A stretch of DNA of 64,000 bases from a virus: IMG/VR virus record IMGVR_UViG_3300032053_000002, positions 108,752-172,751 of that record; one strand, written 5' to 3'. The notes beneath the pieces were generated by a model. The model was not told the origin of the DNA and ran no database searches. It saw only the letters and a list, made by a program, of their open reading frames with translations. Below, in pieces: positions 22,884 through 57,510 of this stretch. The position numbers and the translations under genes are program-made. Every line of letters starts with the position of its first letter. The first letter of the stretch is position 1.

Positions 22884-22899
22884 AGCGACTGTAATAAAA

Positions 22900-23284: not shown

Positions 23285-23292
23285 CTGTTATT

Positions 23293-23472: not shown

Positions 23473-23498
23473 ATCTTATCCTTATTTTTAAGTCTTAG

Positions 23499-23723: not shown

Positions 23724-23753
23724 ATATTGTTTCCTTTTTTTATATTTTAATCT

Positions 23754-23829: not shown

Positions 23830-23836
23830 ATATATT

Positions 23837-24058: not shown

Positions 24059-24086
24059 CTATCAGCTTACCAGTCAACTGCTATTT

Positions 24087-24955: not shown

Positions 24956-24957
24956 CT

Positions 24958-25512: not shown

Positions 25513-25534
25513 TATTCTTTTCTCCTATACCTAA

Positions 25535-25563
25535 AATATACCACTTCTCAGCGTATCAGTCAA
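25535..25563 (-). promoter_or_regulatory. sigma70-like promoter TTGACT-N17-TATATT
   Basis: AGTCAA at 25558-25563 and AATATA at 25535-25540 on plus strand. Confidence 0.55.
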
Positions 25564-25664
25564 GAACTATTTTCGCTATAGCGGCATTCCGGACGGCAAT
25601 GCGGTCGTAACTAGAGCCCTTCGTGAACTTTTTCACATACGGTCTGTACGTTTTCTGTAAGTGG

Positions 25665-25745
25665 TTTTTCAATCCGCTCGCTCCTCTCGGTTGCAATCCG
25701 CTCGCTCCTCTCGGTTGTCAATTCGCTCGCTCCTCTCGGTTGTAG
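25665..25745. repeat. ~23-bp direct repeat x3 (ccgctcgctcctctcggttgcaat)
   Basis: Direct inspection, GC-rich ORF-free island. Confidence 0.8.
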
Positions 25746-25854
25746 GGGGCAACTCGGTAGACGTGTCAGGCGAGTTCAGAACCGTGCATGCAAATAGGCA
25801 GCCTGAAGTGTGTTCGTCGTGTGGGGGGGTTCTTGGCGGGAGTTTGTGGTTTGT

Positions 25855-25912
25855 GCGGGAGTTCTTGCGAGAGTTTGCGCGGGAGTTCTTGCGGGAGTTT
25901 GCGCGAGGAATC
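25855..25912. repeat. ~22-bp direct repeat x2.5 (gcgggagttcttgcgagagttt)
   Basis: Direct inspection. Confidence 0.75.
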
Positions 25913-26084
25913 GTGGAGAAGTGGGGGCATGGGGGTGGCGGTGCTTCCGACGAGTAGCAATTGCGCATCGGCAATACCTGCGACCCACTATTATAATATT
26001 ATCCGAATATCAAAAAGGCGTGGATTATTTATTTATAATAGGGAAGTGATTATCAATTCCAGCAAGTTGTATCAAATAGGCGAG

Positions 26085-36153: not shown

Positions 36154-36951
36154 CTATTTTTGTTTTCCTACCCAAATATAAGTATCACCTTTGAATTTAA
36201 GAGTCTTATGCTCAGAAACTTCAAATTTTGTTTTTAATAAGTCTAATAAATAATACTTTCTATCACAATCATCTTTACTACGATTTTCAAAAATATTCAT
36301 AGTCAAATAAACGTTATTCGAATACGAAAGTATGGAATCGAAGAAAAACTTTGTAGCCGAAACATTCATTTCGGATAAACAATAATCACTGATAGTCAAA
36401 TAACTTTCTTTTTTTTCGACACTGTCAGACGAATTAAATATAACATTGTTTAAATTAAATTTACTCAGGTATTTTTTAGATAACTCTATTGCTTCAGGCA
36501 TATCAACCAATCTATACGAATTAAATTTGTATACGCAACTAGTTATTAGGCATTGACCACCATATGCAGAACCTATTTCGGTTATATCTTTATTATTTAA
36601 GTCGCCAAAATGTTTTCCTAAATCCCCAACAACTTTTATATAGCGCGTTGTATTTGGCGAAAATTTACCGAATTTTTCATATTCGTATATTGGAGGAGAA
36701 CCATGTATATCATTCTTTCTAAACTCGTCGAAGTGATTTATTAAATATGGATATTCTTTTTCAATATAGGTAAGGAATTGTTTTCCTCTTTCAATTCCAT
36801 GGCTATCACACCCAACAATTTGTATGTATTCTCGTAATCTTTTAAATGATGAAAATGTTTCTTCATTTACGGCGGCTTCCTTACAAATTTTTGTATATGG
36901 TTCTGCGAATCTTCGTTCAAGCATCCAATGTCCCTTTACTGTGATAGTCAT
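36154..36951 (-). CDS. putative SAM-dependent methyltransferase, 265 aa
   Basis: ITEIGSAYGGQ glycine-rich motif-I-like segment followed by acidic residue region (LVDMPEA). Confidence 0.4.
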   Translation of the reverse strand: MTITVKGHWMLERRFAEPYTKICKEAAVNEETFSSFKRLREYIQIVGCDSHGIERGKQFLTYIEKEYPYLINHFDEFRKNDIHGSPPIYEYEKFGKFSPNTTRYIKVVGDLGKHFGDLNNKDITEIGSAYGGQCLITSCVYKFNSYRLVDMPEAIELSKKYLSKFNLNNVIFNSSDSVEKKESYLTISDYCLSEMNVSATKFFFDSILSYSNNVYLTMNIFENRSKDDCDRKYYLLDLLKTKFEVSEHKTLKFKGDTYIWVGKQK

Positions 36952-36952
36952 T

Positions 36953-38566
36953 TTAATTATCCTTCTTTAATTTGCTTACTAAAAGTTTCAATTCATAAAA
37001 ATATAAAAAATCAATTTGAGTTTTTAAAAAACATTCGATGGCATCTTTTGGAGTTTCAACAATAGGCTCTCTATCGTTAAAACTGGTATTCAATATTAAA
37101 GGGATTCCGGTTTTTTCTTTCCATTTTTTTAAAAAATTATAATACCATTTATTGTCTTTTTCTGTTACGGTTTGTATTCTCGCCGAACCGTCTGCGTGAA
37201 CTACTGCCGGAACTTTGTTTTTCATATCTTCTTTAAATTTAACAACGATAGACATATATGGACTGTCTACATCTCTAACAAACCAATCTTCTACGTCTTC
37301 TCTCAAAATACTCGGAGCAAAAGGGCGAAACCACTGGCGATGTTTTACTTTTTCATTTACTTTATCTTTCATTTTTATGTCGCGAGGATCGGCAAGAATA
37401 CTTCTATTTCCCAGTGCTCTTCTTCCGGTTTCAGATTTTCCACCATATACGGAAATTATTTTTTGGTTATTCAATAAATCAATGGCTTCTTCATCATTTG
37501 AATTCCGTGATTCGATGTTGCTATATTGTTTAATAGATTTAAAAACGTCCGAATCAGGATAAGAATACCCCAAATACGGAGTGAAATTATCTTTCCAGAA
37601 TATTCGAGGATTGTTGTTGATATGATGCCAAAAGTATTGAGCGGAGCCGATGGCGCACCCAGAATCAGCTGGGGTTGGTGATACGTATATTCCGTCAACG
37701 TTGGGAAACCAATCATAAAGTTTCCCGACCATAACGGAATTAAGAGCCACCCCTCCGGCCAAGCATAAGAATGTTGGGTTGTATTTTTCAATATAGGGCG
37801 ACAATGTTTCTCGAATTAAAATTTCTGTATATTTTTGAAGCGCCGCGGCGACATCAAATTTATATTGCTCATTCTGCTGTATAAGTTCTCGAAGTGCTTC
37901 ACGCGATATAGGAATTTCTTGAGTTACATTTTTGAAAAATCTTTCCGGGTCTCCAAACGCAGACATTGCCATAACCGTTCCTTCCTGAGATCCAATCGGA
38001 TACCCGACAGACAACCCGAATACCTGACTCGTATATTTCTGCCATATCTCTCCGATATTTGGGTCTCCCTGAAATATTTTGATGGGGTATATTTTATTAT
38101 CCACACCTGCCCAAATAGTAAATCCGGAAACTTGTTTACAAATACCACCGTCTTCGCCATTATGAAATTCGTCGCCACCACCATCCATCGTAATAATTAA
38201 CGCATTTTTATAATTGGAAGAAAAAAACGCATTCGCTGCATGAGATTTATGATGCCCAATACCATAACTGGGATTAGTTCCCGGGTCTCCATAAAAGTTA
38301 GCTATTTTTTCAGCTTTTTCATACGTATCAGGGTATCGTTTTTTAATTCCGCCGTGCCATGTCATAACAGGATGAGTAAATGCGTTTATATCACTATAAT
38401 ATGGATATACATTAAACATGAATTCAATAGAATCGGAAACTTTCATCTTCTCTCGCGAAAATCTTTCCAACTCGTGATGAACGGTCGGTATTCCATTTTC
38501 TAATATTGCAAATGAGCAATCATGCCCGCTAAGAAGTCCGCATATTTTCATTTCTTTTATCTCCAT
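36953..38566 (-). CDS. carbamoyltransferase (NodU/CmcH family)
   Basis: 537 aa; N-terminal ICGLLSGHDCSFAILENG Kae1/YrdC-like fold start and HHxSHAANAFF motif typical of this family. Confidence 0.75.
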   Translation of the reverse strand: MEIKEMKICGLLSGHDCSFAILENGIPTVHHELERFSREKMKVSDSIEFMFNVYPYYSDINAFTHPVMTWHGGIKKRYPDTYEKAEKIANFYGDPGTNPSYGIGHHKSHAANAFFSSNYKNALIITMDGGGDEFHNGEDGGICKQVSGFTIWAGVDNKIYPIKIFQGDPNIGEIWQKYTSQVFGLSVGYPIGSQEGTVMAMSAFGDPERFFKNVTQEIPISREALRELIQQNEQYKFDVAAALQKYTEILIRETLSPYIEKYNPTFLCLAGGVALNSVMVGKLYDWFPNVDGIYVSPTPADSGCAIGSAQYFWHHINNNPRIFWKDNFTPYLGYSYPDSDVFKSIKQYSNIESRNSNDEEAIDLLNNQKIISVYGGKSETGRRALGNRSILADPRDIKMKDKVNEKVKHRQWFRPFAPSILREDVEDWFVRDVDSPYMSIVVKFKEDMKNKVPAVVHADGSARIQTVTEKDNKWYYNFLKKWKEKTGIPLILNTSFNDREPIVETPKDAIECFLKTQIDFLYFYELKLLVSKLKKDN

Positions 38567-39560
38567 TTATCATATAATATTTTTTCCAATATTCGATCAT
38601 TTCATCTAACATTTCTTCAAATGTTATTTCCGGTTTCCAACCCGTAGCATTTCTTAATTTGGTCGAGTCTCCCCGTAGTTCATTTAGTTCTTCAGGTCGT
38701 AAATATTTTTTATCAATTTTAACATAATTTTTCCAATCCAATCCTAAAGATGCAAATACATATTCGAGCAATTCCTTAACTGAATGAGATACACCGGTGG
38801 CACAAACAAAATCATCTGGACTATCTTGTTGTAAAATTAACCACATGGCTTTGGCATAATCTTTTGCGTGTCCCCAATCTCTTTTTGCATCAATATTTCC
38901 GAGGACTAACTCGTTTTCCAATCCAAGTTTTATTTCTGTAGCTCTCTTAACAATTTTATTAGTGACAAAATTAGTTCCTCGAACAGGCGATTCATGATTA
39001 AATAAAATTCCATTTGATGCGAATAATTTATATGAATGTCTATAATTTCTTGTAATATTATACGCAAATAATTTCGAGCATCCGTATGGACTTACTGGAT
39101 TTTTTGGCGTTGTTTCTCGCTGAAATCCATCACTATCAATATTGTTTCCAAACATTTCGCTTGAGCTCGCCTGATAAAATTTCGCGTTAGGAGTGATTAA
39201 TTTAATGGCTTCTAATAAGTTCAACGTTCCTATCGCATTCGTCTGTGACGTATAAATAGGTTGGTCGAAACTTATTCTAACATGAGATTGCGCCGCGAGA
39301 TTATAAATTTCGTCGGGCCGTGAATCTTGTAATACACGAATTAGCGAAGACATATCCGTCATGTCACCATAAACAAGTTCTAATTTTTTATGTAATTCTT
39401 TTTTAAACAGATCTTGTAATCTAGATGTTTGATTTTCGGCGACAGAATTTCTTTTTACTATTCCCCAGACTTTATAATTTTTTTCTAATAAGAATCTCGC
39501 TAAATAGCTTCCGTCCTGACCACCGGCACCAGTGAGGAACGCGACTTTTTTTATTCTCAT
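38529..39560 (-). CDS. gmd: GDP-mannose 4,6-dehydratase
   Basis: 343 aa; FLTGAGGQDGSYLARFLLEKNYKVWGIVKRNS N-terminus and YGCSKLFAY catalytic YxxxK are characteristic of GMD. Confidence 0.85.
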   Translation of the reverse strand: MRIKKVAFLTGAGGQDGSYLARFLLEKNYKVWGIVKRNSVAENQTSRLQDLFKKELHKKLELVYGDMTDMSSLIRVLQDSRPDEIYNLAAQSHVRISFDQPIYTSQTNAIGTLNLLEAIKLITPNAKFYQASSSEMFGNNIDSDGFQRETTPKNPVSPYGCSKLFAYNITRNYRHSYKLFASNGILFNHESPVRGTNFVTNKIVKRATEIKLGLENELVLGNIDAKRDWGHAKDYAKAMWLILQQDSPDDFVCATGVSHSVKELLEYVFASLGLDWKNYVKIDKKYLRPEELNELRGDSTKLRNATGWKPEITFEEMLDEMIEYWKKYYMINGDKRNENMRTS

Positions 39561-40771
39561 ACGGAAACTCCTTTATATCTATTTAATATATTACAGATAT
39601 ATTCAACGTCTTCGTCGTTCATTTCGGGATGATTGGGGACGTAAAATCCGAATTGGTCGGCTTTGTTGGCGTTATATAGTAATTTGTTTCCATATTTTTG
39701 AATGTACATCGGCTGAGTACCCATTGAACCGCATATCAGGGGTCTGGTTTCCACTCCGGCGTCAATTAAATCATACGTGATAGCGTATTTCATCGGATGA
39801 ATAACAGGATACGCGAAGTTTGAAACAAAAGTATCGTTTAATGGCTTGGGTTTCCATCCAGGCAAATTTGGAACGTTTTCTTTCCAGATAAGATTTTGAT
39901 ATGTATTAAAATTTTTATTTCTGATTTCAACATTTTTATTAAGTTTTTTGAGTTGTAGTAATCCAAGTTTAGCATTTAAATCGGTTGACCTTAAATTAAA
40001 TCCTGGATGATAAAAAGTCAGAAGCGCATCAAAATTATTTACATTCCAATGTTTTCTAAGTAGATTTCTTTTTTCTTCTGGCAAATCCCTGTCCCATCCA
40101 TGGCTTCGCAACATTAATAACATATGATATAAATCTTCGTCGTTTGTATTCACAAATCCGCCTTCAATGGTCGAAATATGATGTCCGAAATAAGTTGAAT
40201 ATGTGCTGGCGATACCAAAATTGCCTAAATGTTTACCATGATATTTTGTTCCCATTGATTCACAGTTATCCTCAATCAAATCGACATGGTATTGTTTAGA
40301 AATATTTACGAGCTTATCCATATTTGGCGAAAACCCAAGAACCGAAACAGAAATAACGGCGACTATATGGTTGTCGTTTTCTAAGATTGTGGCTAATTGA
40401 TCTAAATCAAGTGTTAAATCATCCATATTACAATCAACCAACACGGGCTTAAATCCAAGTTGTATAACCGGTGATAAGTCTGTCGCCCAAGAAATTGCGG
40501 GGACAACCACTCTAGCATTTCCGTCATAAAATTTTGCATACGCACTATTTTTACTTAATAAAGATAACGCGTACAATAAAAGAAGATTCGCGGACGAACC
40601 ACTATTTACAAACACCGAATATTTAGTTCCGATATATTTTGCCCATTCAGATTCAAGTTGAACAGTTAGTTCACCTTTGGTCAACCTCGGAAATGTTTTT
40701 AACCATTCAATTAATTCGTCAATATCTTGTTTGTCAATTGTATCATTTATTAATGCAATTTTTTTCATCAA
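39557..40771 (-). CDS. DegT/DnrJ/EryC1/StrS-family PLP-dependent sugar aminotransferase (GDP-perosamine-synthase-like)
   Basis: 404 aa; N-terminal LTKGELTVQLESEWAKYIGTKYSVFVNSGSSANLL pattern; genomic coupling with gmd. Confidence 0.8.
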   Translation of the reverse strand: MMKKIALINDTIDKQDIDELIEWLKTFPRLTKGELTVQLESEWAKYIGTKYSVFVNSGSSANLLLLYALSLLSKNSAYAKFYDGNARVVVPAISWATDLSPVIQLGFKPVLVDCNMDDLTLDLDQLATILENDNHIVAVISVSVLGFSPNMDKLVNISKQYHVDLIEDNCESMGTKYHGKHLGNFGIASTYSTYFGHHISTIEGGFVNTNDEDLYHMLLMLRSHGWDRDLPEEKRNLLRKHWNVNNFDALLTFYHPGFNLRSTDLNAKLGLLQLKKLNKNVEIRNKNFNTYQNLIWKENVPNLPGWKPKPLNDTFVSNFAYPVIHPMKYAITYDLIDAGVETRPLICGSMGTQPMYIQKYGNKLLYNANKADQFGFYVPNHPEMNDEDVEYICNILNRYKGVSV

Positions 40772-41471
40772 TAATCCCTTTCTTTTTCATATCATCAATT
40801 ATATCCTGTGATAATGTTCTGTTATCATTGATTAAATTAAAATTTAGAGGCAGGTCAAGTCTTCCTCGTCTTATAGCCTGACATGGTTGAATGACATAAT
40901 CTCTATATGTCGCCAATATTTTATATCCGTCATTTCTCGCGGCATTAGACCCGTATATTTCAAATTCCCATGGCGACCAACCGGGTAATATATATTTTAA
41001 TAAATATTTTCTATTCCATATCGACCACATTGCCGATAATCGGTAATCAACGTTGGGGCGATTAATTATAACATCAAATCCCACTTGCGAACTACAAAAA
41101 TCAAATGGTCGTAATTTACCATCATTCGTTAAACAAAATCTGCCCAACTCATCTGTTAGATAGTTTCCAATTATGTGATTATATATAAAAAAATTAACCG
41201 GTTGCATAATGAATTGATCTTCTGTTGCCCATACAAAAAATTCATCATCAATCGACTCAAAAAAAATTTTCAAATCCGTTGACCACATTTGTATTCCACC
41301 GGTTTGTTTTCCCATAGAAACAAATGTAAAATTACTCGGTAAATTAAATTCGGGCGCATCATACCCCAAAATGGTCACTGATGCGGTTGTACTCCAAAAC
41401 CTGTTAAACAAGTAAGAAAACACTTTTATTAAAGGCAAACATTGGTCGGCAGTTGAAATATAAATCTTCAT
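40743..41471 (-). CDS. hypothetical protein (possible glycosyltransferase), 242 aa
   Basis: ORF track; context. Confidence 0.45.
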   Translation of the reverse strand: MKIYISTADQCLPLIKVFSYLFNRFWSTTASVTILGYDAPEFNLPSNFTFVSMGKQTGGIQMWSTDLKIFFESIDDEFFVWATEDQFIMQPVNFFIYNHIIGNYLTDELGRFCLTNDGKLRPFDFCSSQVGFDVIINRPNVDYRLSAMWSIWNRKYLLKYILPGWSPWEFEIYGSNAARNDGYKILATYRDYVIQPCQAIRRGRLDLPLNFNLINDNRTLSQDIIDDMKKKGIIDEKNCINK

Positions 41472-42733
41472 TTATTAAGCACCATATTCCTTTCTTGAAT
41501 AAATTCTAATATTTCTTTTCTATGTTTTTTTAAATCTTCATTTGATAATTTATCATGCGTGAACACAAAATCTCTTTCATCTTCATCTTTATAGAGTCCG
41601 ACCGTAAATACATAATCACTAAAATTAAGTTGTTTTTTTAATTTAATATTATATTTTTCAGGATTGTTATAAATATCAGAACCTGGCAATGGGACAAACG
41701 TAGAAAGATCTACCGCGTCCGGATTGGTTTTTTTAATAAAATCAATCATATTTTTACTCACATCACTTTCCTGCCCCGGCAATCCTATCATTAAAAATGC
41801 TCTAATTTTAATTCCCGCTTCTTTTGTATTATGGATCGCTTCATAGATTTCACTAACATTAACCCCTTTATTATTTATATCTAAAACATTTTGAGAAACG
41901 TCTTCAATTCCAAAATCTAATTCATAACACCCAGCATCAAACATTTTTTTTAGAACGTCTTTTTCAGCAAAATCTATTCTTGTATTCGCTCTCCATTTGA
42001 TATTCAAATCTTTTATTGTATCGCAAAATTCAAATACCCACTTTTTGTTGGATGTTAAAGTATCATCTTGAAATCTAAATTGTTTTATATCGTATTTATT
42101 AATAATATCACGTATTTCTAGCGAAACATTTTCTGGGCTTCTATATCGCAATCTTCTTTTCCAGATGCTATTGATAGCACAGAAAGAACAGTTGAAAGGA
42201 CATCCACGAGACGCAATTATAGAAGTTGCGTCTTCTCCCCTTTCGCAAAGATATTTACTAATAAAAGAATCTTTTGGAAGAAGATGTCTAGCCGGAAAGG
42301 GCAAATCGCTTATATTTTTTATTAATTTCGCCTCGTATACATTTTTAAGATTGTTTTTTTCATAATCGTTTATCGCATCAATTGTAGATAACTCGCCTTC
42401 TCCAATTATTACAGAATCAAATATTTCATCAACTTTGGATGCGGTTCCATGCATTCCACCGAGAATTATTTTGCATCTATTATCTCTTCCTTTTAGCAAT
42501 TTCGCGAGTTTTAAAACGGTTGGATATTCCGGTGTAGTAGCCGTAATCCCATATATCTCATTTTGTGGCACAAAATTTAACCATCCACGTTCTTCAATAT
42601 TCCGTAAATCTATCATTTCTACCAAAAATCCGTTCGTTTCAAGATATGACGCAATATACATTATACCCAGAGACGGATTGCGTTTCTGGTCTCCTAAAAA
42701 TAGTGATGGTGGTATTATTAGAATTATTTTCAT
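41468..42733 (-). CDS. B12-binding-domain radical SAM enzyme
   Basis: 421 aa; N-terminal cobalamin-binding-like Rossmann segment then CPFNCSFC (CxxxCxxC) radical SAM cluster motif. Confidence 0.75.
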   Translation of the reverse strand: MKIILIIPPSLFLGDQKRNPSLGIMYIASYLETNGFLVEMIDLRNIEERGWLNFVPQNEIYGITATTPEYPTVLKLAKLLKGRDNRCKIILGGMHGTASKVDEIFDSVIIGEGELSTIDAINDYEKNNLKNVYEAKLIKNISDLPFPARHLLPKDSFISKYLCERGEDATSIIASRGCPFNCSFCAINSIWKRRLRYRSPENVSLEIRDIINKYDIKQFRFQDDTLTSNKKWVFEFCDTIKDLNIKWRANTRIDFAEKDVLKKMFDAGCYELDFGIEDVSQNVLDINNKGVNVSEIYEAIHNTKEAGIKIRAFLMIGLPGQESDVSKNMIDFIKKTNPDAVDLSTFVPLPGSDIYNNPEKYNIKLKKQLNFSDYVFTVGLYKDEDERDFVFTHDKLSNEDLKKHRKEILEFIQERNMVLNK

Positions 42734-42739: not shown

Positions 42740-43123
42740 TTATTTTTTGTTGTTTTTTAAACGACCTTTATTTTCCTTACGATTTTTATATTTGTTTTCT
42801 TCATTTTTCATTTTTGTTTTTTTAATTTCAGAAAACTTTTCGAAATTTTCTTCTTGTTCGTCAAGTTCTTCAAAATCCTCGATTTCTCTAAGATTTATTT
42901 TAGGCATTTTAATTTTCTCCTCTAAGTTTTTCGTTAGGTCGTTTATGTTTAAATTGGAAGGTACTACTGATACTATTCCGAAATGATGCAATGATTTGAA
43001 GTTCCCCATCGCGAATTTTGTCGCCTCGAAAATGGAATAAGACATCACATCGCACAATTTTTGCGGTTGTGTATGTTCATTTTCCATATAAACCATGTAT
43101 GATTTTAATTGATTTTTTTTCAT
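42740..43123 (-). CDS. Lys/Glu-rich hypothetical protein, 127 aa
   Basis: ORF track; low complexity. Confidence 0.4.
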   Translation of the reverse strand: MKKNQLKSYMVYMENEHTQPQKLCDVMSYSIFEATKFAMGNFKSLHHFGIVSVVPSNLNINDLTKNLEEKIKMPKINLREIEDFEELDEQEENFEKFSEIKKTKMKNEENKYKNRKENKGRLKNNKK

Positions 43124-43410
43124 TTAAATAAATTATTAAACCACGCCGTTATCTTTTTAACTCTTTCATATTTCCATAAGTATTTAGAAAAAAAAATATG
43201 CAAGGGCGAAACATATGTTGCATCTATCAACTCTTGTATTGTGTGCTGATAAATATCATCGGCGAGAATAATGAATCCTATTGTAATAATTACTTTCGCT
43301 ACTATAATGAGAATTATGTAGTGAATAGCAATTGCCAGCCATAATAAAAGAGCGCCAAAAATCACCAAACCAATTCCTAGATATCCATGATGCCATTCTC
43401 TCCAAGTCAT
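43120..43410 (-). CDS. membrane protein, 96 aa
   Basis: Three hydrophobic helices. Confidence 0.45.
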   Translation of the reverse strand: MTWREWHHGYLGIGLVIFGALLLWLAIAIHYIILIIVAKVIITIGFIILADDIYQHTIQELIDATYVSPLHIFFSKYLWKYERVKKITAWFNNLFK

Positions 43411-43832
43411 TTTTTATTCTCCAATTTGTAAATTTCATAGTCGCGATTTTTTTCAATTGACTCTAAGGATAAATATACTAATCTTTGTTTATAGTCTCGT
43501 ACTGAATAATCTTTTTTTATATCTCTTCTAACCGCAATATACGCCTTTCCGTTTGGAGTTAATAGTCTTTTTATTTTCTTGAGTATTGTCGCCTGAACTA
43601 CTTCTGAAACAACATTCAACACAAACAAACAGGTAATAGTATCAAATTTTTCTTCAGGAACGGTGGGATTCCAGTGCGGGTCATACGATTCTGTTTTTAA
43701 TATTTTCGCATCTTCTCCCTGACCGCAACCATAATCTAAAATTCTTCCCACCAATAATTTATTATCGGCAAGAAATTTCATCGGCCGGGACAAGGATTTT
43801 CTTTTAATGGCGGCTTTCCAGGAAGTATTCAT
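43407..43832 (-). CDS. class I SAM-dependent methyltransferase, 141 aa
   Basis: ILDYGCGQGEDA motif I. Confidence 0.6.
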   Translation of the reverse strand: MNTSWKAAIKRKSLSRPMKFLADNKLLVGRILDYGCGQGEDAKILKTESYDPHWNPTVPEEKFDTITCLFVLNVVSEVVQATILKKIKRLLTPNGKAYIAVRRDIKKDYSVRDYKQRLVYLSLESIEKNRDYEIYKLENKK

Positions 43833-43834
43833 AA

Positions 43835-45034
43835 TTATCTATTCATCGATTTATCACAAAAAATTAATTCCCGTTCATAATGTTTTACGCGACTAACTAT
43901 AACAGTAAATATATCAAATTGATAATTTCCAACTTCGGTTAGTTGGTCGCCCAATATGAAGGGCATCTCGGCGACATAATTAAAAGTTTCTCTCGTCGCT
44001 TTTCTGGCGTCAAACTTAATCATAATATCAGGTTCAAAAAGAGTTTTATTTTTTTCATTTGGAAATACTCTTTTAGTTAAATCATAAAAAGTATTCGGTT
44101 GCTCTTCTTTAATATATTTTTCGCATTCACCAACTGGCAAATCTGTGAAGATGCGTGTTGAATACGGCTCCAAAAAGTGCAACAAATCCAGAGTTACTCC
44201 TGAAACGGAATATGTGATCTGATATTTGTGCGGGATAGTTGGTCTTAAATAATTGTCGTGTTTAACCATTGCGCCCCATTTGCGAATAAAGTTTCTTTCT
44301 GACCGACGATTTTGTATCAACCATTCTATTGAAGGAGTTCCCACCGTAGTGAGTTGCGGTTGAAATCTTGATCCGCGACAGGTCATATGATAGCAAAAAG
44401 AGTTCCACGTCTGTATTGGTTCATACCCCGCCAGAATAAATCTATTGAAAATATCAGAGTCTTCTCGCGACTGCGGAGCAAAAAGAGGATCGTGCCCACC
44501 AATTTTTAAAAAATCTTCCTTGTGTATCGCCCACGGCGCGAACATCCCCTTTGTTTTTTCTGAACTTTTTTGTTTTTCCGCAAACTCCAAAAAATCCTTT
44601 TCTATAAATTGTTCTGGTTCAGTACCATATGCGGCTAATATCTTTTCTGGGCCGGGCGGGTGGATTGGTGGTTCTATTCTGGTAACAGATACTACTGTTT
44701 TCGGTTTTATTAAATCAGATATTTCAGTATCCATTCCAGGGATTGCGTGCATGTCCGCGTGCCAGATCATTATTATTTCGTTTGTCGCCGAGTCGATTAA
44801 CCGGTCGTATAGTATGGTGTGACCGAGACGAGTTGGGCCTTCGTTACGAAATATCCGAACATTCTTATCTTTTTCGGCGACCTCTTGTAGCCATTTCCAC
44901 GTTCCATCGTTGGAAAAGTCGTCGTACATACAGATTTCGTGAGATGGGTCGCAATGTTTTCTTAGCGAATTATACGACCATTTTAAGTACTGTAAATTGT
45001 TTCGGCTTGGAACTATAAAACTGATTTTTTTCAT
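43835..45034 (-). CDS. family-2 glycosyltransferase (GT-A fold)
   Basis: 399 aa; ISFIVPSRNNLQYLKWSYNSLRKH...YDDFSNDGT. Confidence 0.65.
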   Translation of the reverse strand: MKKISFIVPSRNNLQYLKWSYNSLRKHCDPSHEICMYDDFSNDGTWKWLQEVAEKDKNVRIFRNEGPTRLGHTILYDRLIDSATNEIIMIWHADMHAIPGMDTEISDLIKPKTVVSVTRIEPPIHPPGPEKILAAYGTEPEQFIEKDFLEFAEKQKSSEKTKGMFAPWAIHKEDFLKIGGHDPLFAPQSREDSDIFNRFILAGYEPIQTWNSFCYHMTCRGSRFQPQLTTVGTPSIEWLIQNRRSERNFIRKWGAMVKHDNYLRPTIPHKYQITYSVSGVTLDLLHFLEPYSTRIFTDLPVGECEKYIKEEQPNTFYDLTKRVFPNEKNKTLFEPDIMIKFDARKATRETFNYVAEMPFILGDQLTEVGNYQFDIFTVIVSRVKHYERELIFCDKSMNR

Positions 45035-45609: not shown

Positions 45610-46335
45610 TTATTTTTCTTTAGACGCTTTTTTTCGGTCTTCATCCGTAATTTCATAATCTCCGGTGGTACGATATGACGCGACTACTGTATTTACTGCG
45701 GAATATAAATTCATCGTTCCTATCGCATTCGCATTATAAGTTAGTGAAGATTTTGCTGAGATTCCATATTGAGACGCCGTGGTAATTGCATCCTGATTTG
45801 CTCCCAAAAATATAAATTCCCATTTATTATTTTCTTTTTTATCGGTAATGAGTTTGAAAATATGTTTAGCATCAAATTCTTTACTATTATTTTCGTAACC
45901 ATCCGTCATAACAATAATCATAACTTTTTTAGGCTTATCACTTTCGGCTAATAAACGTATTCTATCTTCCGTCGATTCTATGGTTCTACCTATCGCATCT
46001 AGTAAAGAAGTCATTCCTCTCGGAACAAAAGTGCTATCATCCAATTCGTTTGCGGTTTGTATATCTGCTCCGGTATAGACAACTTCATATTCATGATCAA
46101 ATTGGAATAAAGAAAATAACGCTCTATCTTTTAACTTTTTCTGTTTTTTAAGAAATTCATTAAATCCTCCGATAACATCGTTTTTAATAGACGACATCGA
46201 CCCCGACCGGTCTAATACAAATGATATGTCCGTGTAGTTTTGAGATCCTACTTTTTTACTATAATGTTTTTTAATGTAGTTATTCCTTTTTTTTCTAATC
46301 ACGGACTCTTCTTTTTTGTTAAGTTTTTTTTTCAT
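45610..46335 (-). CDS. vWA domain protein (MIDAS DxSxS: DRSGSMSS)
   Basis: 241 aa; ISFVLDRSGSMSS... Confidence 0.6.
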   Translation of the reverse strand: MKKKLNKKEESVIRKKRNNYIKKHYSKKVGSQNYTDISFVLDRSGSMSSIKNDVIGGFNEFLKKQKKLKDRALFSLFQFDHEYEVVYTGADIQTANELDDSTFVPRGMTSLLDAIGRTIESTEDRIRLLAESDKPKKVMIIVMTDGYENNSKEFDAKHIFKLITDKKENNKWEFIFLGANQDAITTASQYGISAKSSLTYNANAIGTMNLYSAVNTVVASYRTTGDYEITDEDRKKASKEK

Positions 46336-47812: not shown

Positions 47813-48790
47813 TCATCTAAATAGTTCGTTGATAACGTTGTTAATATATGGTATATAATTCTTTTCATTATATAACGATTTATTAAAATTTTCTCGGGCT
47901 TCCAATTCGCACTCTTTTCTAAAAACTTCGTCGGTCTTTAATTTTTTTGCTAATTTTGTCGCCGTGAGAATATCGCCATCACTAACACTTAGTTTTGGCT
48001 GGCAGCTTTCTTGCGTATCCAACCCCCTATATCCGATGCAAGGAATTCCATAAAAAGAGCAATTCAAAGTAAACGTTCCTGCGGCGTGAGTCGGCATTAA
48101 ATGCACCCCAAAGGAAAATTGTGAAAGTTGTCTCATCCATTCCAACCAATCAACAAACGGTATATGAATTAACTCCAAATCTTCTTCCTGTTTTATTCTT
48201 CTTCCCATACTAGGAGCATATATTGGGTAACCGAATGTTTGGGCGACAATATAAGAATCGAATCCCCCATACCATCTAACCATATTTCCACCAATTATAG
48301 TCAATTCCCGTCTATTGACAATATTTTGTGAAAGTCTTTCTGTAATCATTAAAGTCGGGTTAATAACAGTTTTAACTCCAGTAAGTCCTTGATAATAACT
48401 GGCATCTTTTTTATTGTGCGCCCAAATCATATCAAATTCTGTTAAAATATTATAATACCAAACCTGTTCTGCCATAGAAAAATCTTGGAAATACCAATGC
48501 GGCCCCTCTTGCATCATTATCATTTTTTTAGAATTTTTTTTAATTTTTTCTATCGAATTCAGTTGAATTAGAGCGGTTATATTTTTTTTAGGTAATGTTA
48601 CAATAGATAAATCAAATTTTATATCAGGAACATTAAATCTTGTATCGGGAACATTAAAAATACAATAGTGAGTCGCGTTTAAAACATGCATCCACGCCGA
48701 GTCATTTCTCATATTACGATGATCTCTAGGAATTTTTCCGACCCAGTTGCCCTCTGTAAACCACGCAATGTTTAAGTCTTTTATTTCCAT
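47813..48790 (-). CDS. hypothetical protein (possible glycosyltransferase), 325 aa
   Basis: ORF track; context. Confidence 0.45.
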   Translation of the reverse strand: MEIKDLNIAWFTEGNWVGKIPRDHRNMRNDSAWMHVLNATHYCIFNVPDTRFNVPDIKFDLSIVTLPKKNITALIQLNSIEKIKKNSKKMIMMQEGPHWYFQDFSMAEQVWYYNILTEFDMIWAHNKKDASYYQGLTGVKTVINPTLMITERLSQNIVNRRELTIIGGNMVRWYGGFDSYIVAQTFGYPIYAPSMGRRIKQEEDLELIHIPFVDWLEWMRQLSQFSFGVHLMPTHAAGTFTLNCSFYGIPCIGYRGLDTQESCQPKLSVSDGDILTATKLAKKLKTDEVFRKECELEARENFNKSLYNEKNYIPYINNVINELFR

Positions 48791-49704
48791 ATCAGGTCTT
48801 CCATTTCTTTGATAGACATTTTTTCCGCCGTTAAAGAAGAATACTTTTCAAGCAATCTTGTATTCGAATTGGTATTCTTTTCATTTTTAATGTATATAAA
48901 GTCGCCTTCGACATATGAATATAATATTTCCATATCATTTATTAAATCTTCATTTATTTTTTCGCCTTCTCTATCTCCTACTATCATTACTTTGTCGGAA
49001 ATGATTTTTGCTAAAGAATACATATTTACTGATTTTGATTTATACAATCCGATTATTCCACCGCCATTTTTTACTGTATATTCCAGTACGTTTTTTATCG
49101 TAGTCGCCGCATTTTCTTGGCTCAACATCAATCTATTCATATCGGGATTAGTAAGTAACAAGGGCTCTCCATTTTCTTTTAGTGATAACCAGTATGGTAT
49201 AACGGAACCGGTACTGTGCGCGACATTAGCAAACCTGACTATCGAAAATTTATTTTTTTCAGAATTGGAATTCAAAAAACACTTTTCCATTAAATACTTA
49301 GTTGACCCGTATACATTGCTCGGAGAACACGCTTTATCTGTGCTGATAAATAATGTGACTGGAACATTGGTGCGTAAAGACGCATCTATAACGTTTAAAC
49401 CGCCCGTTATATTTACTTTACACGCATACGTTGGATTTTTTTCAATCAAATCAACGTGTTTTAATGCTGCGGTATGAATCACCGCATGCGGTTTAACTTC
49501 AGAAAAAACTTTTAATAAAAATCCGGCGTCTTCAATTCCTCCCGAATACGTTTTAATGCCAGGAAATTCCCTATTCAATTTTACTGAATTTATTTCCGTT
49601 CTATTCACATTTATAAATTCGTAATCGTTTTTATATTTCCTTATAAAAGAACTTCCAATAGTCCCGCTTCCGCCGGTTACAAGAATTTTCATATTACTCG
49701 CCAT
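48781..49704 (-). CDS. NAD-dependent epimerase/dehydratase (CapD/PseB-like)
   Basis: 307 aa; MKILVTGGSGTIGSSF; YGSTKYLMEK. Confidence 0.7.
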   Translation of the reverse strand: MASNMKILVTGGSGTIGSSFIRKYKNDYEFINVNRTEINSVKLNREFPGIKTYSGGIEDAGFLLKVFSEVKPHAVIHTAALKHVDLIEKNPTYACKVNITGGLNVIDASLRTNVPVTLFISTDKACSPSNVYGSTKYLMEKCFLNSNSEKNKFSIVRFANVAHSTGSVIPYWLSLKENGEPLLLTNPDMNRLMLSQENAATTIKNVLEYTVKNGGGIIGLYKSKSVNMYSLAKIISDKVMIVGDREGEKINEDLINDMEILYSYVEGDFIYIKNEKNTNSNTRLLEKYSSLTAEKMSIKEMEDLIWK

Positions 49705-51109: not shown

Positions 51110-51877
51110 TTATTTTCCCCATATTTCTATAAATTCACATTTTAAATAATTAATAATTTCTTGTTTTCTTTTTTTATCTTTTTCAATTTGAAATCGGTGA
51201 CGCTTTTCATAATATTCAAACCAAGTATTAGTTGATTTACTATATCCGTCGGCCCAATATCCTAAATCTTTAATATAAAACTCGCCCCCGTTTTCGGCGT
51301 GTTGCAAATCTGTAATATTGAGTTTTTCCGCGTTTGATTCTAGAATCGGAATGGCTCTTGGATTATAATTTGGTTTTATTTGCCCTTTATTTTTTTCTAT
51401 TCTTTTAATAGCAGACAATCTCATTTTTTTCTTTGTTTCTTTTGATAGTTTTTTTCCTGAATTGGCTTTATTCCCAATAGTTGCGTTACCTATTTTTCTT
51501 TTCGTCTCTTCCGTATGTAAATGCCAAGAATTTACTCTTATTTTTTCTTTTGATTCTTCGGAATGTTTTCTACCACCAAATCCCGCCGGTTTAACTCTCT
51601 TTATAGATTCGCTAATCTTTCTTCTATGTTCTGATGAAAGTTGCTTGCCGAAAAAAGGATTTCCTTCTCCGGTTTTTGATTTACTCATATTTAACTTCGC
51701 ATTCTCAGAAAGGTGTCTTCCTGAGAATGTACAGGAAAGACATTTATAATTTCTAATTTCTGCAAAATTTCTGTTTTTTTGTGATTTATAGAATATTTTT
51801 TTCTCACACTTAGGGCACTTTCTGCTCCATTTTTTTTCTTTTATTTTCCCAATATCGCTTTTTGTTTCGTTCATCAA
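51110..51877 (-). CDS. zinc-finger protein with three NUMOD3-like repeats (homing-endonuclease-type DNA-binding module)
   Basis: 255 aa; CPKCEKK...CLSC; repeats GKQLSSEHRRKISESIKR / GRKHSEESKEKIRVNS / GKKLSKETKKKMRLSAIKR. Confidence 0.45.
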   Translation of the reverse strand: MMNETKSDIGKIKEKKWSRKCPKCEKKIFYKSQKNRNFAEIRNYKCLSCTFSGRHLSENAKLNMSKSKTGEGNPFFGKQLSSEHRRKISESIKRVKPAGFGGRKHSEESKEKIRVNSWHLHTEETKRKIGNATIGNKANSGKKLSKETKKKMRLSAIKRIEKNKGQIKPNYNPRAIPILESNAEKLNITDLQHAENGGEFYIKDLGYWADGYSKSTNTWFEYYEKRHRFQIEKDKKRKQEIINYLKCEFIEIWGK

Positions 51878-53306: not shown

Positions 53307-53559
53307 ATAATAGTTTTTTAAAAAAGTCTTCTACGTCTATCGCGAAATATGTACCGACAAAAAGACCAAACAACCACGGAAATATTGGCCAAGAATTTAT
53401 AATTATTCCTTTGATTATGACGGCTGCAAATATTCCGGTAGCGACTGAATAGAATGCGCCCTGTAATTTTTTTCCTTCGGCAACTTTTCTGATATACAAT
53501 GCCCAAACTATGTCCGTGAATACTCCCGTCAAAAATAATATTAGTGCATAAAGTATCAT
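53284..53559 (-). CDS. small membrane protein, 91 aa
   Basis: Three TM helices. Confidence 0.4.
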   Translation of the reverse strand: MILYALILFLTGVFTDIVWALYIRKVAEGKKLQGAFYSVATGIFAAVIIKGIIINSWPIFPWLFGLFVGTYFAIDVEDFFKKLLYGKNKNE

Positions 53560-56592: not shown

Positions 56593-57510
56593 TTATCCCA
56601 TGCCTAAATTGTAAAAGTTTTCAAAATACCATTCATACGTTTTTCTCAACCCGTTTTCCAACGAAGTAAACGAATATTCATATCCTAACAAACTATTTAA
56701 TTCGCCGTTATCTCCATCTTTTCTATATTGCCCATCAAGTTTCCCATTGAATTTTATATGTAGATGTTTACCGCTAATTTTTAATACCATGTCAATATAT
56801 TCTTTAATACTGATATTTTCTTTTGGCGCAACTATTATCGGAATATCATTGTGATGTTTTTCCAACAGAATAGGAATAATATTAGCCAAATCGTCTACAT
56901 ATAATTCTTGTCTTAATGGATTTCCAGTACCAAAAAATTCTATCGTGTCCCCATTACGTGCATGCACAACTTTTCTAATAAGAACGGATGTAAAATGCGA
57001 GGTTTCCAGATCAAAATTGCTTCCCGGCCCATATAAATTTGACGGTACGAAAGTACAATAATCCATGCCATATTGTTTTCTACACGCATTAATGTGAACG
57101 ATCAGCATTCTCTTCGCATATCCATAGCCTAAATTTGTTTCAGCTGGAGCCCCTTCATGCAAATCTCTTTCAGCCATTGGATATTTTGGAAGAACATCTG
57201 GAAAAGAACAAACACTAGACGCCGCAATAAGTCTTTTAATTTTCATTTCAAGCGCGGCTTTAACAACATTAGTATTGATCATAATGTTCTCATAATAAAA
57301 CGTTTCTGGAAAACTACTATTTGCTTTAATCCCCCCAACGCGTGCGGCTAAATGAATAATTGCGTCCGGATTATAATATTCTACCATATCACGTGTGTCT
57401 TTAAAATCAATAAGATTGTTGTGTTCGTTTCCAACGTATATCCATTCGGGTTTAACCTTACGTAACGCACTTCCTACAAATCCAGTACCACCGGTGACTA
57501 ATATTTTCAT
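56593..57510 (-). CDS. GDP-L-fucose synthase-like (GDP-4-keto-6-deoxymannose 3,5-epimerase/4-reductase)
   Basis: 305 aa; MKILVTGGTGFVGSAL; HLAARVGGIKANS; SNLYGPGSNFDLETSHF..VLIRK matches Fcl/WcaG signature. Confidence 0.75.
   Translation of the reverse strand: MKILVTGGTGFVGSALRKVKPEWIYVGNEHNNLIDFKDTRDMVEYYNPDAIIHLAARVGGIKANSSFPETFYYENIMINTNVVKAALEMKIKRLIAASSVCSFPDVLPKYPMAERDLHEGAPAETNLGYGYAKRMLIVHINACRKQYGMDYCTFVPSNLYGPGSNFDLETSHFTSVLIRKVVHARNGDTIEFFGTGNPLRQELYVDDLANIIPILLEKHHNDIPIIVAPKENISIKEYIDMVLKISGKHLHIKFNGKLDGQYRKDGDNGELNSLLGYEYSFTSLENGLRKTYEWYFENFYNLGMG

What the first reader, a model, noticed from the sequence alone, without database searches (positions are those of the whole stretch)
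36953..42733. Carbamoyltransferase, GMD, DegT aminotransferase and B12-radical-SAM in one co-directional run
The order is a carbamoyltransferase, then GDP-mannose dehydratase, then a PLP aminotransferase, then an unknown 242-aa protein, then a cobalamin-dependent radical SAM. It fits synthesis of a 4-amino-4,6-dideoxyhexose that is subsequently N- or O-carbamoylated and C-methylated, since B12-rSAM enzymes are typically methyltransferases acting on unactivated carbons. That combination is characteristic of antibiotic sugar tailoring rather than of phage genomes.
Basis: inference. Interest (0 to 1): 0.6.

Follow-up and report, generated by a model that had tools for sequence, protein, structure and literature searches.

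The report
Phage dideoxy-sugar operon with radical-SAM partner
A large uncultured phage carries an operon that most likely turns GDP-mannose into a 3,6-dideoxy sugar (not an amino sugar), modifies it with an uncharacterised B12-type radical SAM enzyme and attaches and decorates it, and the same enzyme partnership recurs in uncultivated bacteria and archaea.

Summary
The five ORFs are real, at the stated coordinates, all on the minus strand. They are transcribed rSAM -> 242-aa protein -> DegT-fold protein -> GMD -> carbamoyltransferase and are translationally coupled inside a ~28-kb glycan island of a phage-like 169-kb contig.

- The "aminotransferase" is a ColD-type PMP-dependent GDP-4-keto-6-deoxymannose 3-dehydratase. 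His197 replaces the Schiff-base lysine, and ColD scores E=3e-60 against 1e-26 for perosamine synthase. The predicted sugar is therefore a 3,6-dideoxyhexose, not a 4-amino sugar.
- The "unknown" 242-aa protein has a GT-A glycosyltransferase fold.
- The rSAM has CxxxCxxC and a B12-binding domain but reaches no characterised family's cutoff. Its nearest solved relative is the non-methylating sugar dehydratase AprD4.

Orthologues of the rSAM (41-58% identity) in Omnitrophota, Planctomycetia and DPANN/other archaea sit next to a GDP-fucose-synthase-like SDR (14/19 loci), GMD (9/19) and a DegT-fold gene (8/19; His-type wherever checked). In one archaeon the rSAM is fused to the SDR.

The individual enzymes are common in phages. 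The rSAM-bearing version is rare. The rSAM's reaction is unproven; C-methylation is the most likely.

The parts
41468..42733 (-). B12-binding-domain radical SAM enzyme (421 aa), first gene of the five. Uncharacterised subfamily; proposed to modify the GDP-3,6-dideoxyhexose or one of its intermediates.
   Evidence: Pfam Radical_SAM 76.5 bits and B12-binding 45.9 bits. C178/C182/C185 (CxxxCxxC), G92-G93-x-H95 and E112-G113-E114 are invariant in 34 homologues. The N-terminal domain aligns with the TokK cobalamin domain. No NCBIfam cutoff is reached. AprD4 is the best solved match by sequence and by fold.
40743..41471 (-). 242-aa soluble GT-A-fold protein, a candidate glycosyltransferase for a GDP-deoxyhexose.
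   Evidence: AF2 pLDDT 95. Foldseek matches GT-A glycosyltransferases in PDB and BFVD, probability 1.0, TM 0.45-0.59. E84-D85 follows strand 78-83 at the DXD position, and D85 is invariant. 46 IMG/VR loci carry this family, and about 33 have GMD within about 9 kb.
39557..40771 (-). ColD-type PMP-dependent GDP-4-keto-6-deoxymannose 3-dehydratase (DegT fold, His197 in place of the catalytic Lys).
   Evidence: PDB phmmer: ColD 3e-60, E1 1.8e-32, PseC-type 2.4e-27, perosamine synthase 1e-26. 'YFGHHIST' aligns to ColD 'FYSHHIAT', and the H188N and H188K mutant entries mark the position.
38529..39560 (-). GDP-mannose 4,6-dehydratase (GMD).
   Evidence: TIGR01472 equivalog 417.6 bits against cutoff 415. 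Pfam GDP_Man_Dehyd 411 bits.
36953..38566 (-). O-carbamoyltransferase of the NodU/CmcH/TobZ/NovN family; an accessory tailoring enzyme.
   Evidence: Pfam Carbam_trans_C and Carbam_trans_N. PDB hits TobZ 5.6e-45, NovN 6.8e-43, GdmN 1e-39. About 30% identity to cyanophage and pelagiphage carbamoyltransferases. Absent from the L172 relative. One IMG/VR locus (L179) has a 51% homologue 2.3 kb from a GT-A242 gene.
36154..36951 (-). Probable sugar O-methyltransferase (NanM-like), immediately downstream.
   Evidence: TIGR04371 43.4 bits against cutoff 44, so borderline. Homologues lie next to GT-A242 in 12 viral loci.
42740..43410 (-). Two small unknown ORFs (127 aa; 96 aa with two hydrophobic segments), translationally coupled upstream of the rSAM.
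   Evidence: ORF list; no family found; hydrophobicity scan.
43407..45034 (-). SAM-methyltransferase domain protein (141 aa) and a GT2 glycosyltransferase (399 aa) in the same coupled run.
   Evidence: Pfam Methyltransf_23 43.3 bits and Glycos_transf_2 49.6 bits.
56593..57510 (-). GDP-L-fucose-synthase/ColC-like epimerase-reductase; the probable displaced 4-reductase of the pathway.
   Evidence: NF047922 205.6 bits, below its cutoff. PDB GDP-L-fucose synthase 2e-57. Its 57% homologue sits between ColD-like and GMD in L172. The same SDR type lies next to rSAM orthologues in 14/19 loci and is fused to one in L101.

Best explanation
The five genes are the core of a translationally coupled glycan-decoration operon of a large uncultured phage.

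Proposed pathway:
1. GMD converts GDP-mannose to GDP-4-keto-6-deoxymannose.
2. The DegT-fold protein is a ColD-type PMP enzyme. It removes the 3-OH and gives GDP-4-keto-3,6-dideoxymannose. It does not aminate.
3. A GDP-fucose-synthase/ColC-like SDR (56593-57510, displaced about 16 kb here, adjacent in relatives) reduces and possibly epimerises this to a colitose-type GDP-3,6-dideoxyhexose.
4. The B12-domain radical SAM enzyme is a conserved partner of this pathway. It adds a radical modification, most likely a cobalamin-dependent C-methylation of an unactivated carbon such as C3 or C6.
5. The 242-aa GT-A-fold protein transfers the sugar to an unknown acceptor (virion protein or host surface glycan).
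6. The carbamoyltransferase and the neighbouring O-methyltransferase decorate free hydroxyls.

Shown here: gene identities, the His-for-Lys substitution, the GT-A fold, and the conserved synteny and fusion.
Inferred: the rSAM's substrate and reaction, the order of steps, and the acceptor.
For: - GMD passes its equivalog cutoff.
- ColD is the best PDB match by about 30 orders of magnitude over aminotransferases. His197 aligns with ColD His188.
- The DegT-fold genes in rSAM-orthologue loci with at least 25% identity to the window's protein over more than 350 aa are all His-type (AHH, AHN, AHL, GHH). More distant DegT paralogues in four of those loci (L003, L100, L103, L107) keep the lysine.
- rSAM orthologues (>=41% identity, 19 loci) have an Fcl-like SDR in 14, GMD in 9 and DegT in 8, against 3, 2 and 1 of 128 loci for more distant B12-rSAMs. 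Fisher p = 5e-13 for the SDR and 6e-8 for GMD.
- L101 encodes the SDR and the rSAM as one 740-aa ORF with no intervening stop.
- L172/L173 keep rSAM, GT-A242, ColD-like, Fcl-like SDR and GMD contiguous.
- Phage loci L195, L196 and L216 have GT-A242, Fcl-like SDR, ColD-like and GMD without the rSAM. This makes the rSAM an optional tailoring step.
- The B12 domain is above the Pfam cutoff, and GGxH and GEGE align with the TokK cobalamin domain.
- The 242-aa protein has a GT-A fold.
- The carbamoyltransferase groups with O-carbamoyltransferases that act on sugar hydroxyls, TobZ and NovN.
Against: - No biochemical data exist for any member of this rSAM subfamily.
- All NCBIfam matches are far below their cutoffs, and methylases (ApyD, PhpK, HpnR) are interleaved with non-methylases (HpnJ, BchE, AprD4).
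- The closest solved structure by sequence (profile E = 6e-30) and by fold (TM 0.75) is AprD4, which needs no cobalamin and dehydrates a sugar diol.
- The Fcl-like SDR is not adjacent in this window, and three such SDRs exist in the island, so the pairing rests on the L172 homology.
- 5 of 19 orthologue loci show none of the three partners within 8 kb, and several of the 19 loci come from related genomes (L094/L095, L098/L106, L100/L107).
- No lipid-carrier, flippase or polymerase gene was seen in the window, and the acceptor is unknown.
Confidence: 0.5

Rival explanations
1. The rSAM is not a methylase. It is an AprD4-like, HpnJ-like or OxsB-like radical enzyme (dehydratase, epimerase or rearrangement) that works as a pair with the Fcl-like SDR, as AprD4 does with the reductase AprD3. 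It would act on a GDP-6-deoxyhexose intermediate and give a further deoxygenated or rearranged sugar.
For: AprD4 is the top solved match by sequence and by fold, and it acts on a sugar. Per the review PMC12931638, AprD4 does not bind cobalamin despite a Rossmann-like N-terminal domain. The strongest genomic partner of the rSAM is an SDR, which is even fused to it in L101; this mirrors a radical-dehydratase plus ketoreductase pair. HpnJ, a sugar ring-contraction enzyme, scores 130 bits.
Against: After ColD action no vicinal diol remains on the hexose, so AprD4-type 1,2-diol dehydration has no obvious substrate downstream of ColD (inference from chemistry). The AprD4 alignment covers only the rSAM core (positions 137-358), whereas the N-terminal domain aligns with the genuine cobalamin domain of TokK and passes the Pfam B12-binding cutoff. 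Identity to AprD4 is only 18-19%.
Confidence: 0.25
2. One reading: GMD plus a genuine 4-aminotransferase make a 4-amino-4,6-dideoxyhexose (perosamine-type), which is then N- or O-carbamoylated and C-methylated.
For: The protein has the DegT/DnrJ/EryC1 fold. Perosamine synthases are detectable homologues at E = 1e-26. The ColD H188K mutant is deposited (PDB 2r0t); from my own knowledge of the ColD literature it has aminotransferase activity, so the two activities are close.
Against: There is no lysine at the Schiff-base position: H197-H198 aligns with ColD H188-H189. ColD and E1 dehydratases outscore all aminotransferases. The motif FGHHxxTIEGG is conserved in the 70% homologue in L172 and in cyanophage ACG-2014f gp211.
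Confidence: 0.07
3. The run is a mosaic of independently acquired genes with no shared product. The rSAM acts on a non-sugar substrate such as a peptide, lipid or cofactor.
For: Phage glycan islands are clearly modular: GT-A242, GMD, O-methyltransferase and carbamoyltransferase occur in many combinations. The best NCBIfam hit is a RiPP enzyme, ApyD. L005 and L011 orthologues lack sugar genes nearby.
Against: The Fisher-tested enrichment of SDR and GMD (and the 8/19 vs 1/128 excess of DegT) near orthologues, the SDR-rSAM fusion, and the conserved rSAM-GT-A-ColD order at 72% identity. The 4-nt start/stop overlaps at both ends of the 242-aa gene.
Confidence: 0.08
4. The island makes a sugar for hypermodification of phage DNA rather than for a protein or surface glycan.
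For: Phages are known to glycosylate DNA bases (general knowledge). No lipid-carrier machinery was seen in the window.
Against: No base-hydroxymethylase or DNA-glycosyltransferase family was detected among the proteins scanned. The island holds several GT2/GT-A/GT8-type transferases and O-methyltransferases typical of oligosaccharide assembly. Cellular orthologue modules sit in glycan loci with GT1/GT2 genes, Bac_transf and a Polysacc_synt-family (Wzx-type) transporter.
Confidence: 0.03

Closest known systems
GDP-L-colitose pathway of E. coli O55 and related O-antigens (GMD, ColD, ColC)
   Same: GMD passes the equivalog cutoff. The DegT-fold enzyme has His at the ColD His188 position and ColD as its best match. 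A GDP-fucose-synthase/ColC-like SDR is present in the island and adjacent in relatives.
   Different: Only about 35% identity to ColD. Gly replaces the Ser before the His pair. The SDR lies 16 kb away in this window. The pathway is coupled to a B12-domain rSAM, a novel GT-A, a carbamoyltransferase and an O-methyltransferase, none of which belong to the colitose pathway. The stereochemistry of the product is unknown.
Class B (cobalamin-dependent) radical SAM enzymes such as TokK, CysS, QCMT/MgmA, GenK, Fom3
   Same: N-terminal B12-binding Rossmann domain with GGxH and GEGE motifs, plus a CxxxCxxC radical SAM core. Fold matches to MgmA, TsrM, CysS and TokK at TM 0.66-0.71.
   Different: No family-specific cutoff is reached. 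Compact two-domain protein of 421 aa. The proposed substrate would be a GDP-sugar of a cell-surface or virion glycan rather than an antibiotic, peptide or cofactor. Cobalamin binding and methyl transfer are untested.
AprD4/AprD3 (apramycin C3' deoxygenation: radical SAM diol dehydratase plus reductase)
   Same: Closest solved structure (TM 0.75; profile E = 6e-30). AprD4 acts on a sugar. The partnership with an NAD(P)H-dependent reductase-type protein parallels the rSAM-SDR linkage and fusion.
   Different: 18-19% identity. The AprD4 N-terminal domain is not aligned by sequence, and AprD4 binds no cobalamin. The C3 deoxygenation is already provided here by the ColD-type enzyme.
Cyanophage and pelagiphage 'LPS/glycan' auxiliary gene islands (e.g. 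Synechococcus phage ACG-2014f, S-SCSM1, P-RSM4)
   Same: GMD, Fcl-like SDRs, a His-type DegT (ACG-2014f gp211), glycosyltransferases, methyltransferases and Nol-like carbamoyltransferases are encoded by cultured marine myoviruses.
   Different: No nucleotide similarity to any deposited phage. Protein identities are 30-50%. None of those phages has this rSAM; the only deposited-phage hit covering most of it is Streptomyces phage SF3 at 25%.
Noviose/novobiocin-type and moenomycin-type antibiotic sugar tailoring
   Same: Combination of a deoxysugar with O-carbamoylation (NovN is a strong PDB hit), O-methylation and a possible C-methylation (the rest from general knowledge).
   Different: Analogy only. 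The nucleotide carrier is GDP rather than dTDP. NovU is a conventional SAM C-methyltransferase. The genomic setting is a phage and prokaryotic glycan loci, not a secondary-metabolite cluster.

Membership tests
ColD-type GDP-4-keto-6-deoxymannose 3-dehydratase | Fold-type I DegT/DnrJ/EryC1 scaffold | tested here: met
   PF01041 205 bits against cutoff 19.8.
ColD-type GDP-4-keto-6-deoxymannose 3-dehydratase | Histidine in place of the Schiff-base lysine (ColD His188) | tested here: met
   H197 aligns with the position mutated in the PDB entries 3b8x (H188N) and 2r0t (H188K). No Lys in the motif YFGHHISTIEGG.
ColD-type GDP-4-keto-6-deoxymannose 3-dehydratase | Closer to ColD/E1 dehydratases than to sugar aminotransferases | tested here: met
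   ColD 3e-60, E1 1.8e-32, best aminotransferase 2.4e-27. The best NCBIfam match is RfbH, below its cutoff.
ColD-type GDP-4-keto-6-deoxymannose 3-dehydratase | Catalytic activity: C3 deoxygenation with PMP regenerated from glutamate | not testable with these tools
   Needs an enzyme assay.
GDP-mannose 4,6-dehydratase | Equivalog-level HMM score | tested here: met
   TIGR01472 417.6 bits against cutoff 415.
Class B cobalamin-dependent radical SAM methyltransferase | CxxxCxxC cluster motif in a radical SAM core | tested here: met
   C178, C182 and C185 are invariant in 34 homologues.
Class B cobalamin-dependent radical SAM methyltransferase | N-terminal B12-binding Rossmann domain | tested here: met
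   PF02310 45.9 bits against cutoff 32.1. Aligns with the TokK cobalamin domain including GGxH and GEGE.
Class B cobalamin-dependent radical SAM methyltransferase | Membership of a characterised methylase family by curated cutoff | tested here: not met
   ApyD 135.9/750, PhpK 122/600, HpnR 78.6/650 and QCMT (TIGR04014) 67.1/360 bits; all below cutoff.
Class B cobalamin-dependent radical SAM methyltransferase | Cobalamin binding and methyl transfer (SAH and 5'-dA formed, +14 Da product) | not testable with these tools
   Needs anaerobic reconstitution.
AprD4-type radical SAM diol dehydratase | Curated family score | tested here: not met
   NF033070 72.9 bits against cutoff 500, although AprD4 is the best solved match.
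NodU/CmcH/TobZ O-carbamoyltransferase | Kae1-like N-terminal plus YrdC-like C-terminal carbamoyltransferase domains | tested here: met
   PF02543 70.9 bits and PF16861 215 bits, both above cutoff. TobZ, NovN and GdmN hits. The NodU equivalog is not met (137.5/1000), so membership is at family level only.
GT-A fold glycosyltransferase | Rossmann-like GT-A fold | tested here: met
   AF2 pLDDT 95. Foldseek probability 1.0 to SpsA, GTA/GTB, POMGnT1 and B4GALNT1, TM 0.45-0.52. Viral GT-A proteins also match.
GT-A fold glycosyltransferase | DXD-type acidic motif after the fourth strand | tested here: inconclusive
   E84-D85-Q86 follows strand 78-83, and D85 is invariant. It is E-D-x rather than D-x-D, and metal or nucleotide binding was not modelled.
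GT-A fold glycosyltransferase | Match to a curated GT family | tested here: not met
   No Pfam, NCBIfam or PHROG hit.

The most novel reading that the evidence does not exclude
The rSAM defines an undescribed enzyme family that performs a cobalamin-dependent radical modification, such as C-methyl branching or chain extension, on a GDP-linked 3,6-dideoxy or 6-deoxy hexose. This would be a new class of branched deoxysugar used in cell-surface glycans of Omnitrophota, Planctomycetia and DPANN and other archaea, and borrowed by a large phage to decorate its virion or its host's surface. It would be, to my knowledge, the first B12-radical SAM enzyme acting on a nucleotide sugar of primary glycan biosynthesis.
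Probability: 0.35. Interest if true: 0.7.

Novelty: new variant of a known kind. Interest (0 to 1): 0.55.

Why it matters
Phage-encoded glycan islands are widespread but almost uncharacterised. This one gives a concrete, testable pathway.

- It corrects a likely systematic mis-annotation. His-type DegT proteins in phages, for example cyanophage ACG-2014f gp211, are labelled aminotransferases but look like 3-dehydratases.
- It identifies a phage-typical GT-A family tied to GDP-mannose-derived sugars.
- It links an uncharacterised B12-domain radical SAM subfamily to the GDP-deoxyhexose pathway through enriched synteny and a gene fusion. That linkage names a substrate class for an orphan radical SAM family found across poorly known phyla, so its chemistry can be tested directly.

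If the product is a new branched dideoxy sugar, it would add to known glycan chemistry. It could also bear on phage-host recognition in groundwater and sediment communities.

Tried and rejected
- Megablast of 36-46 kb against deposited phages found no match.
- Promoter and terminator scans gave counts equal to shuffled sequence, so they say nothing about operon limits.
- PHROG and Pfam scans of the remaining island ORFs mostly returned nothing.
- phmmer of the 242-aa protein against the PDB found nothing, so a structure prediction was needed.
- Literature searches for a radical SAM enzyme linked to colitose, a 3-dehydratase or GDP-4-keto-6-deoxy sugars found no relevant paper in the held library.
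- The look-up of the identical 242-aa protein did not return the 292-kb contig reported for its cluster, so genome size and host remain open.
- I considered whether the rSAM could replace the E3 reductase of E1-type dehydratases (the E1-like L003 locus shows no E3). I rejected this as unsupported speculation.
- I considered DNA hypermodification and ranked it low.
- NCBIfam scores cannot separate methylase from non-methylase function, because the two kinds are interleaved.

Full report
**Observation.** The window is AT-rich (GC 0.31-0.42) and nearly all long ORFs lie on the minus strand. The five ORFs of the finding are present exactly as described:
- 36953-38566 (537 aa)
- 38529-39560 (343 aa)
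- 39557-40771 (404 aa)
- 40743-41471 (242 aa)
- 41468-42733 (421 aa)

Because they are on the minus strand, transcription runs rSAM -> 242-aa -> DegT-fold -> GMD -> carbamoyltransferase. Pfam assigns Carbam_trans_N/C, GDP_Man_Dehyd, DegT_DnrJ_EryC1, nothing, and B12-binding plus Radical_SAM, all above gathering cutoffs. GMD also passes the NCBIfam equivalog cutoff (417.6 against 415 bits). Neighbouring start and stop codons overlap or are a few bases apart from 46335 down to 36154, so the five genes are part of a longer coupled run. Simple promoter and terminator scans were uninformative.

**Setting.** The window comes from a 168,695-bp metagenomic contig (ENA ERZ27247916). It looks like a large phage for these reasons:
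- uniform gene orientation and many small ORFs;
- a cluster of four tRNA-Ser genes plus tRNA-His;
- a NUMOD3 endonuclease;
- PHROG hits, including a CobS/MoxR-like ATPase;
- protein-level relatives in a Microcystis phage and in huge-phage contigs.

There is no nucleotide similarity to any deposited phage. The finding lies at the edge of a glycan island that runs from about 36 kb to the end of the window. The island holds:
- two GT2 genes, a methyltransferase-GT8 fusion and a PseB-like dehydratase;
- a further 4,6-dehydratase-like SDR and a GalE-like SDR;
- three GDP-fucose-synthase-like SDRs and several methyltransferases.

No multi-pass membrane protein of the Wzx, Wzy or initiating-transferase type was seen.

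**The 'aminotransferase' is a 3-dehydratase.** Against the PDB, the DegT-fold protein matches ColD (GDP-4-keto-6-deoxymannose 3-dehydratase) at E = 3e-60. Next come the CDP-sugar 3-dehydrase E1 at 1.8e-32, and only then aminotransferases (PseC-type 2.4e-27, perosamine synthase 1e-26).
- The alignment places query H197 opposite ColD His188. This is the residue that replaces the Schiff-base lysine of aminotransferases.
- The deposited H188N and H188K mutants mark the column unambiguously.
- With GMD encoded immediately downstream, the expected product is GDP-4-keto-3,6-dideoxymannose, not a 4-amino sugar.
- The same FGHHxxTIEGG motif is present in the 70%-identical homologue of a related contig. 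It is also present in gp211 of cultured Synechococcus phage ACG-2014f, which is annotated 'aminotransferase' and sits next to two SDRs.

**The 242-aa protein.** It has no family match but about 25 metagenomic homologues.
- An AlphaFold model built on their alignment is confident (pLDDT 95).
- It matches GT-A glycosyltransferases in the PDB (SpsA, blood-group GTA/GTB, POMGnT1, B4GALNT1) and in viral proteomes, at probability 1.0 and TM 0.45-0.59.
- An acidic pair E84-D85 follows strand 78-83, where GT-A enzymes carry DXD. D85 is invariant.
- In IMG/VR the family occurs in 46 viral loci, and about 33 of them have a GMD gene (>=52% identity) within about 9 kb.

It is therefore a phage-typical candidate transferase for a GDP-mannose-derived sugar.

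**The radical SAM enzyme.**
- Motifs: it has CxxxCxxC (C178/C182/C185) and an N-terminal domain above the Pfam B12-binding cutoff. The invariant motifs G92-G93-x-H95 and E112-G113-E114 (GEGE in most members) align with the cobalamin domain of TokK.
- Family scores: none of 35 NCBIfam rSAM families reaches its cutoff. Methylases (ApyD, PhpK, HpnR) and non-methylases (HpnJ, BchE, AprD4) are interleaved in the ranking.
- Solved relatives: the nearest structure is AprD4, both by sequence (profile E = 6e-30, rSAM core only) and by fold (TM 0.75). The genuine B12 enzymes MgmA/QCMT, TsrM, CysS and TokK follow at TM 0.66-0.71. AprD4 dehydrates a sugar diol and is reported not to bind cobalamin (PMC12931638).

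The B12 domain is therefore supported by homology, but the reaction type is not settled.

**Comparative genomics.** The rSAM has 3,631 relatives. The closest cellular ones (41-58% identity) are in Omnitrophota, Planctomycetia, DPANN archaea and Methanoperedens MAGs.

| Partner within 8 kb | rSAM >=41% identity (19 loci) | More distant B12-rSAM (128 loci) | Fisher p |
|---|---|---|---|
| GDP-fucose-synthase-like SDR | 14 | 3 | 5e-13 |
| GMD (45-51% identity) | 9 | 2 | 6e-8 |
| DegT-fold gene | 8 | 1 | not computed |

Some loci come from related genomes.
- The closer DegT-fold genes in these loci (at least 25% identity to the window's protein over more than 350 aa) are all His-type, with motifs AHH, AHN, AHL or GHH. 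More distant DegT paralogues in four of the loci keep the lysine.
- In the archaeal locus L101 the SDR and the rSAM form one 740-aa ORF without an intervening stop. This is a Rosetta-stone fusion.
- In a related phage-like contig (L172/L173) the order is rSAM (72%), GT-A (59%), ColD-like (70%), Fcl-like SDR (57% to window 56593-57510), GMD (73%). This identifies 56593-57510 as the probable displaced reductase of the pathway.
- Viral loci L195, L196 and L216 carry GT-A, SDR, ColD-like and GMD without the rSAM. A more distant viral locus (L057) again has a B12-rSAM next to a His-type DegT and an Fcl-like SDR. The rSAM thus behaves as an optional tailoring module added to a colitose-type pathway.
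- The carbamoyltransferase is not part of the conserved core. It is absent from L172 and present near GT-A242 only in L179 at 51% identity. Its solved relatives are O-carbamoyltransferases acting on sugar or polyketide hydroxyls: TobZ, NovN and GdmN.

**Mechanism proposed.**
1. GDP-mannose is converted to GDP-4-keto-6-deoxymannose by GMD.
2. The ColD-type enzyme converts this to GDP-4-keto-3,6-dideoxymannose.
3. The Fcl/ColC-like SDR converts this to a GDP-3,6-dideoxyhexose.
4. The rSAM adds a radical modification. The point in the pathway is unknown. The most likely reaction is cobalamin-dependent C-methylation of an unactivated carbon.
5. The GT-A protein transfers the sugar.
6. O-carbamoylation and O-methylation follow.

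Steps 1 and 2 rest on strong sequence evidence. Step 3 rests on homology and synteny. Steps 4 to 6 are inference. The main rival is a non-methylating, AprD4-like or HpnJ-like radical reaction paired with the SDR. The acceptor (virion protein, host surface glycan or, least likely, DNA) is unknown.

**Comparison and novelty.** Each enzyme type occurs in phages, so the claim that the set is foreign to phage genomes is not supported. GMD/Fcl/His-DegT cassettes already exist in cultured cyanophages, though they are unrecognised as such. Two things are new:
- the coupling to this uncharacterised B12-domain rSAM subfamily, which among deposited phages has only a 25% relative in Streptomyces phage SF3;
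- the recognition that the same module is conserved in uncultivated bacteria and archaea.

No paper in the held library connects a radical SAM enzyme with colitose-type pathways. I rate it a new variant of a known kind, with moderate interest.

Noticed in passing
window 985-2107 and 23754-23828: Four tRNA-Ser genes with four different anticodons (GGA, CGA, TGA, GCT) clustered within 1.1 kb, plus a tRNA-His, all on the minus strand. This is an unusual single-amino-acid tRNA set for a phage.
   Followed up: no
window 2742-4244: A 500-aa hybrid sensor kinase (PAS, HisKA, HATPase_c and a receiver domain) encoded in a phage-like contig. It matches phrog_5982 strongly.
   Followed up: no
window 18853-20160 and 45610-46335: A CobS/MoxR-like AAA+ ATPase (phrog_249 'porphyrin biosynthesis') and a vWA-domain protein occur in the same genome as a B12-domain radical SAM enzyme. 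The vWA gene lies inside the glycan island. Any link to cobalamin supply is speculative.
   Followed up: no
window 14001-26000: A block with GC 0.38-0.42 against 0.31-0.35 elsewhere. It contains a 750-aa ORF with relatives only in a Microcystis phage and a 484-kb huge-phage contig.
   Followed up: partly
window 51110-51877: A NUMOD3-motif homing-endonuclease-like gene sits in the middle of the glycan island.
   Followed up: no
window 56593-57510, 60857-61819, 62808-63803, 59684-60673, 48781-49704: Three GDP-fucose-synthase-like SDRs, a second 4,6-dehydratase-like SDR and a PseB-like dehydratase lie in one island. This suggests several deoxysugar branches from one or two precursors.
   Followed up: partly
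L170 6968-8161 (Synechococcus phage ACG-2014f_Syn7803US26 gp211, NC_047714.1): This gene is annotated 'aminotransferase' but carries FYFGHHMTTIEGG, the His-type ColD motif, next to two nucleotide-sugar SDRs. It is probably a mis-annotated 3-dehydratase in cultured cyanophages.
   Followed up: yes
L101 7050-9272 (archaeal MAG JBDRMT010000026.1): A single 740-aa ORF fuses a GDP-fucose-synthase-like SDR to the rSAM orthologue.
   Followed up: yes
L094, L095, L098, L106 (Planctomycetia and Omnitrophota MAGs): Loci with the rSAM orthologue hold two further B12-binding radical SAM paralogues (475-530 aa), SAM methyltransferases and a GT1. L003 and L099 combine an E1-like His-DegT and the rSAM. L003 also has a ThDP enzyme next to the DegT and no E3 reductase among its annotated genes.
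   Followed up: partly
window 53556-54917: A 453-aa protein combines an N-terminal SAM-methyltransferase domain with a C-terminal GT8-like region.
   Followed up: no
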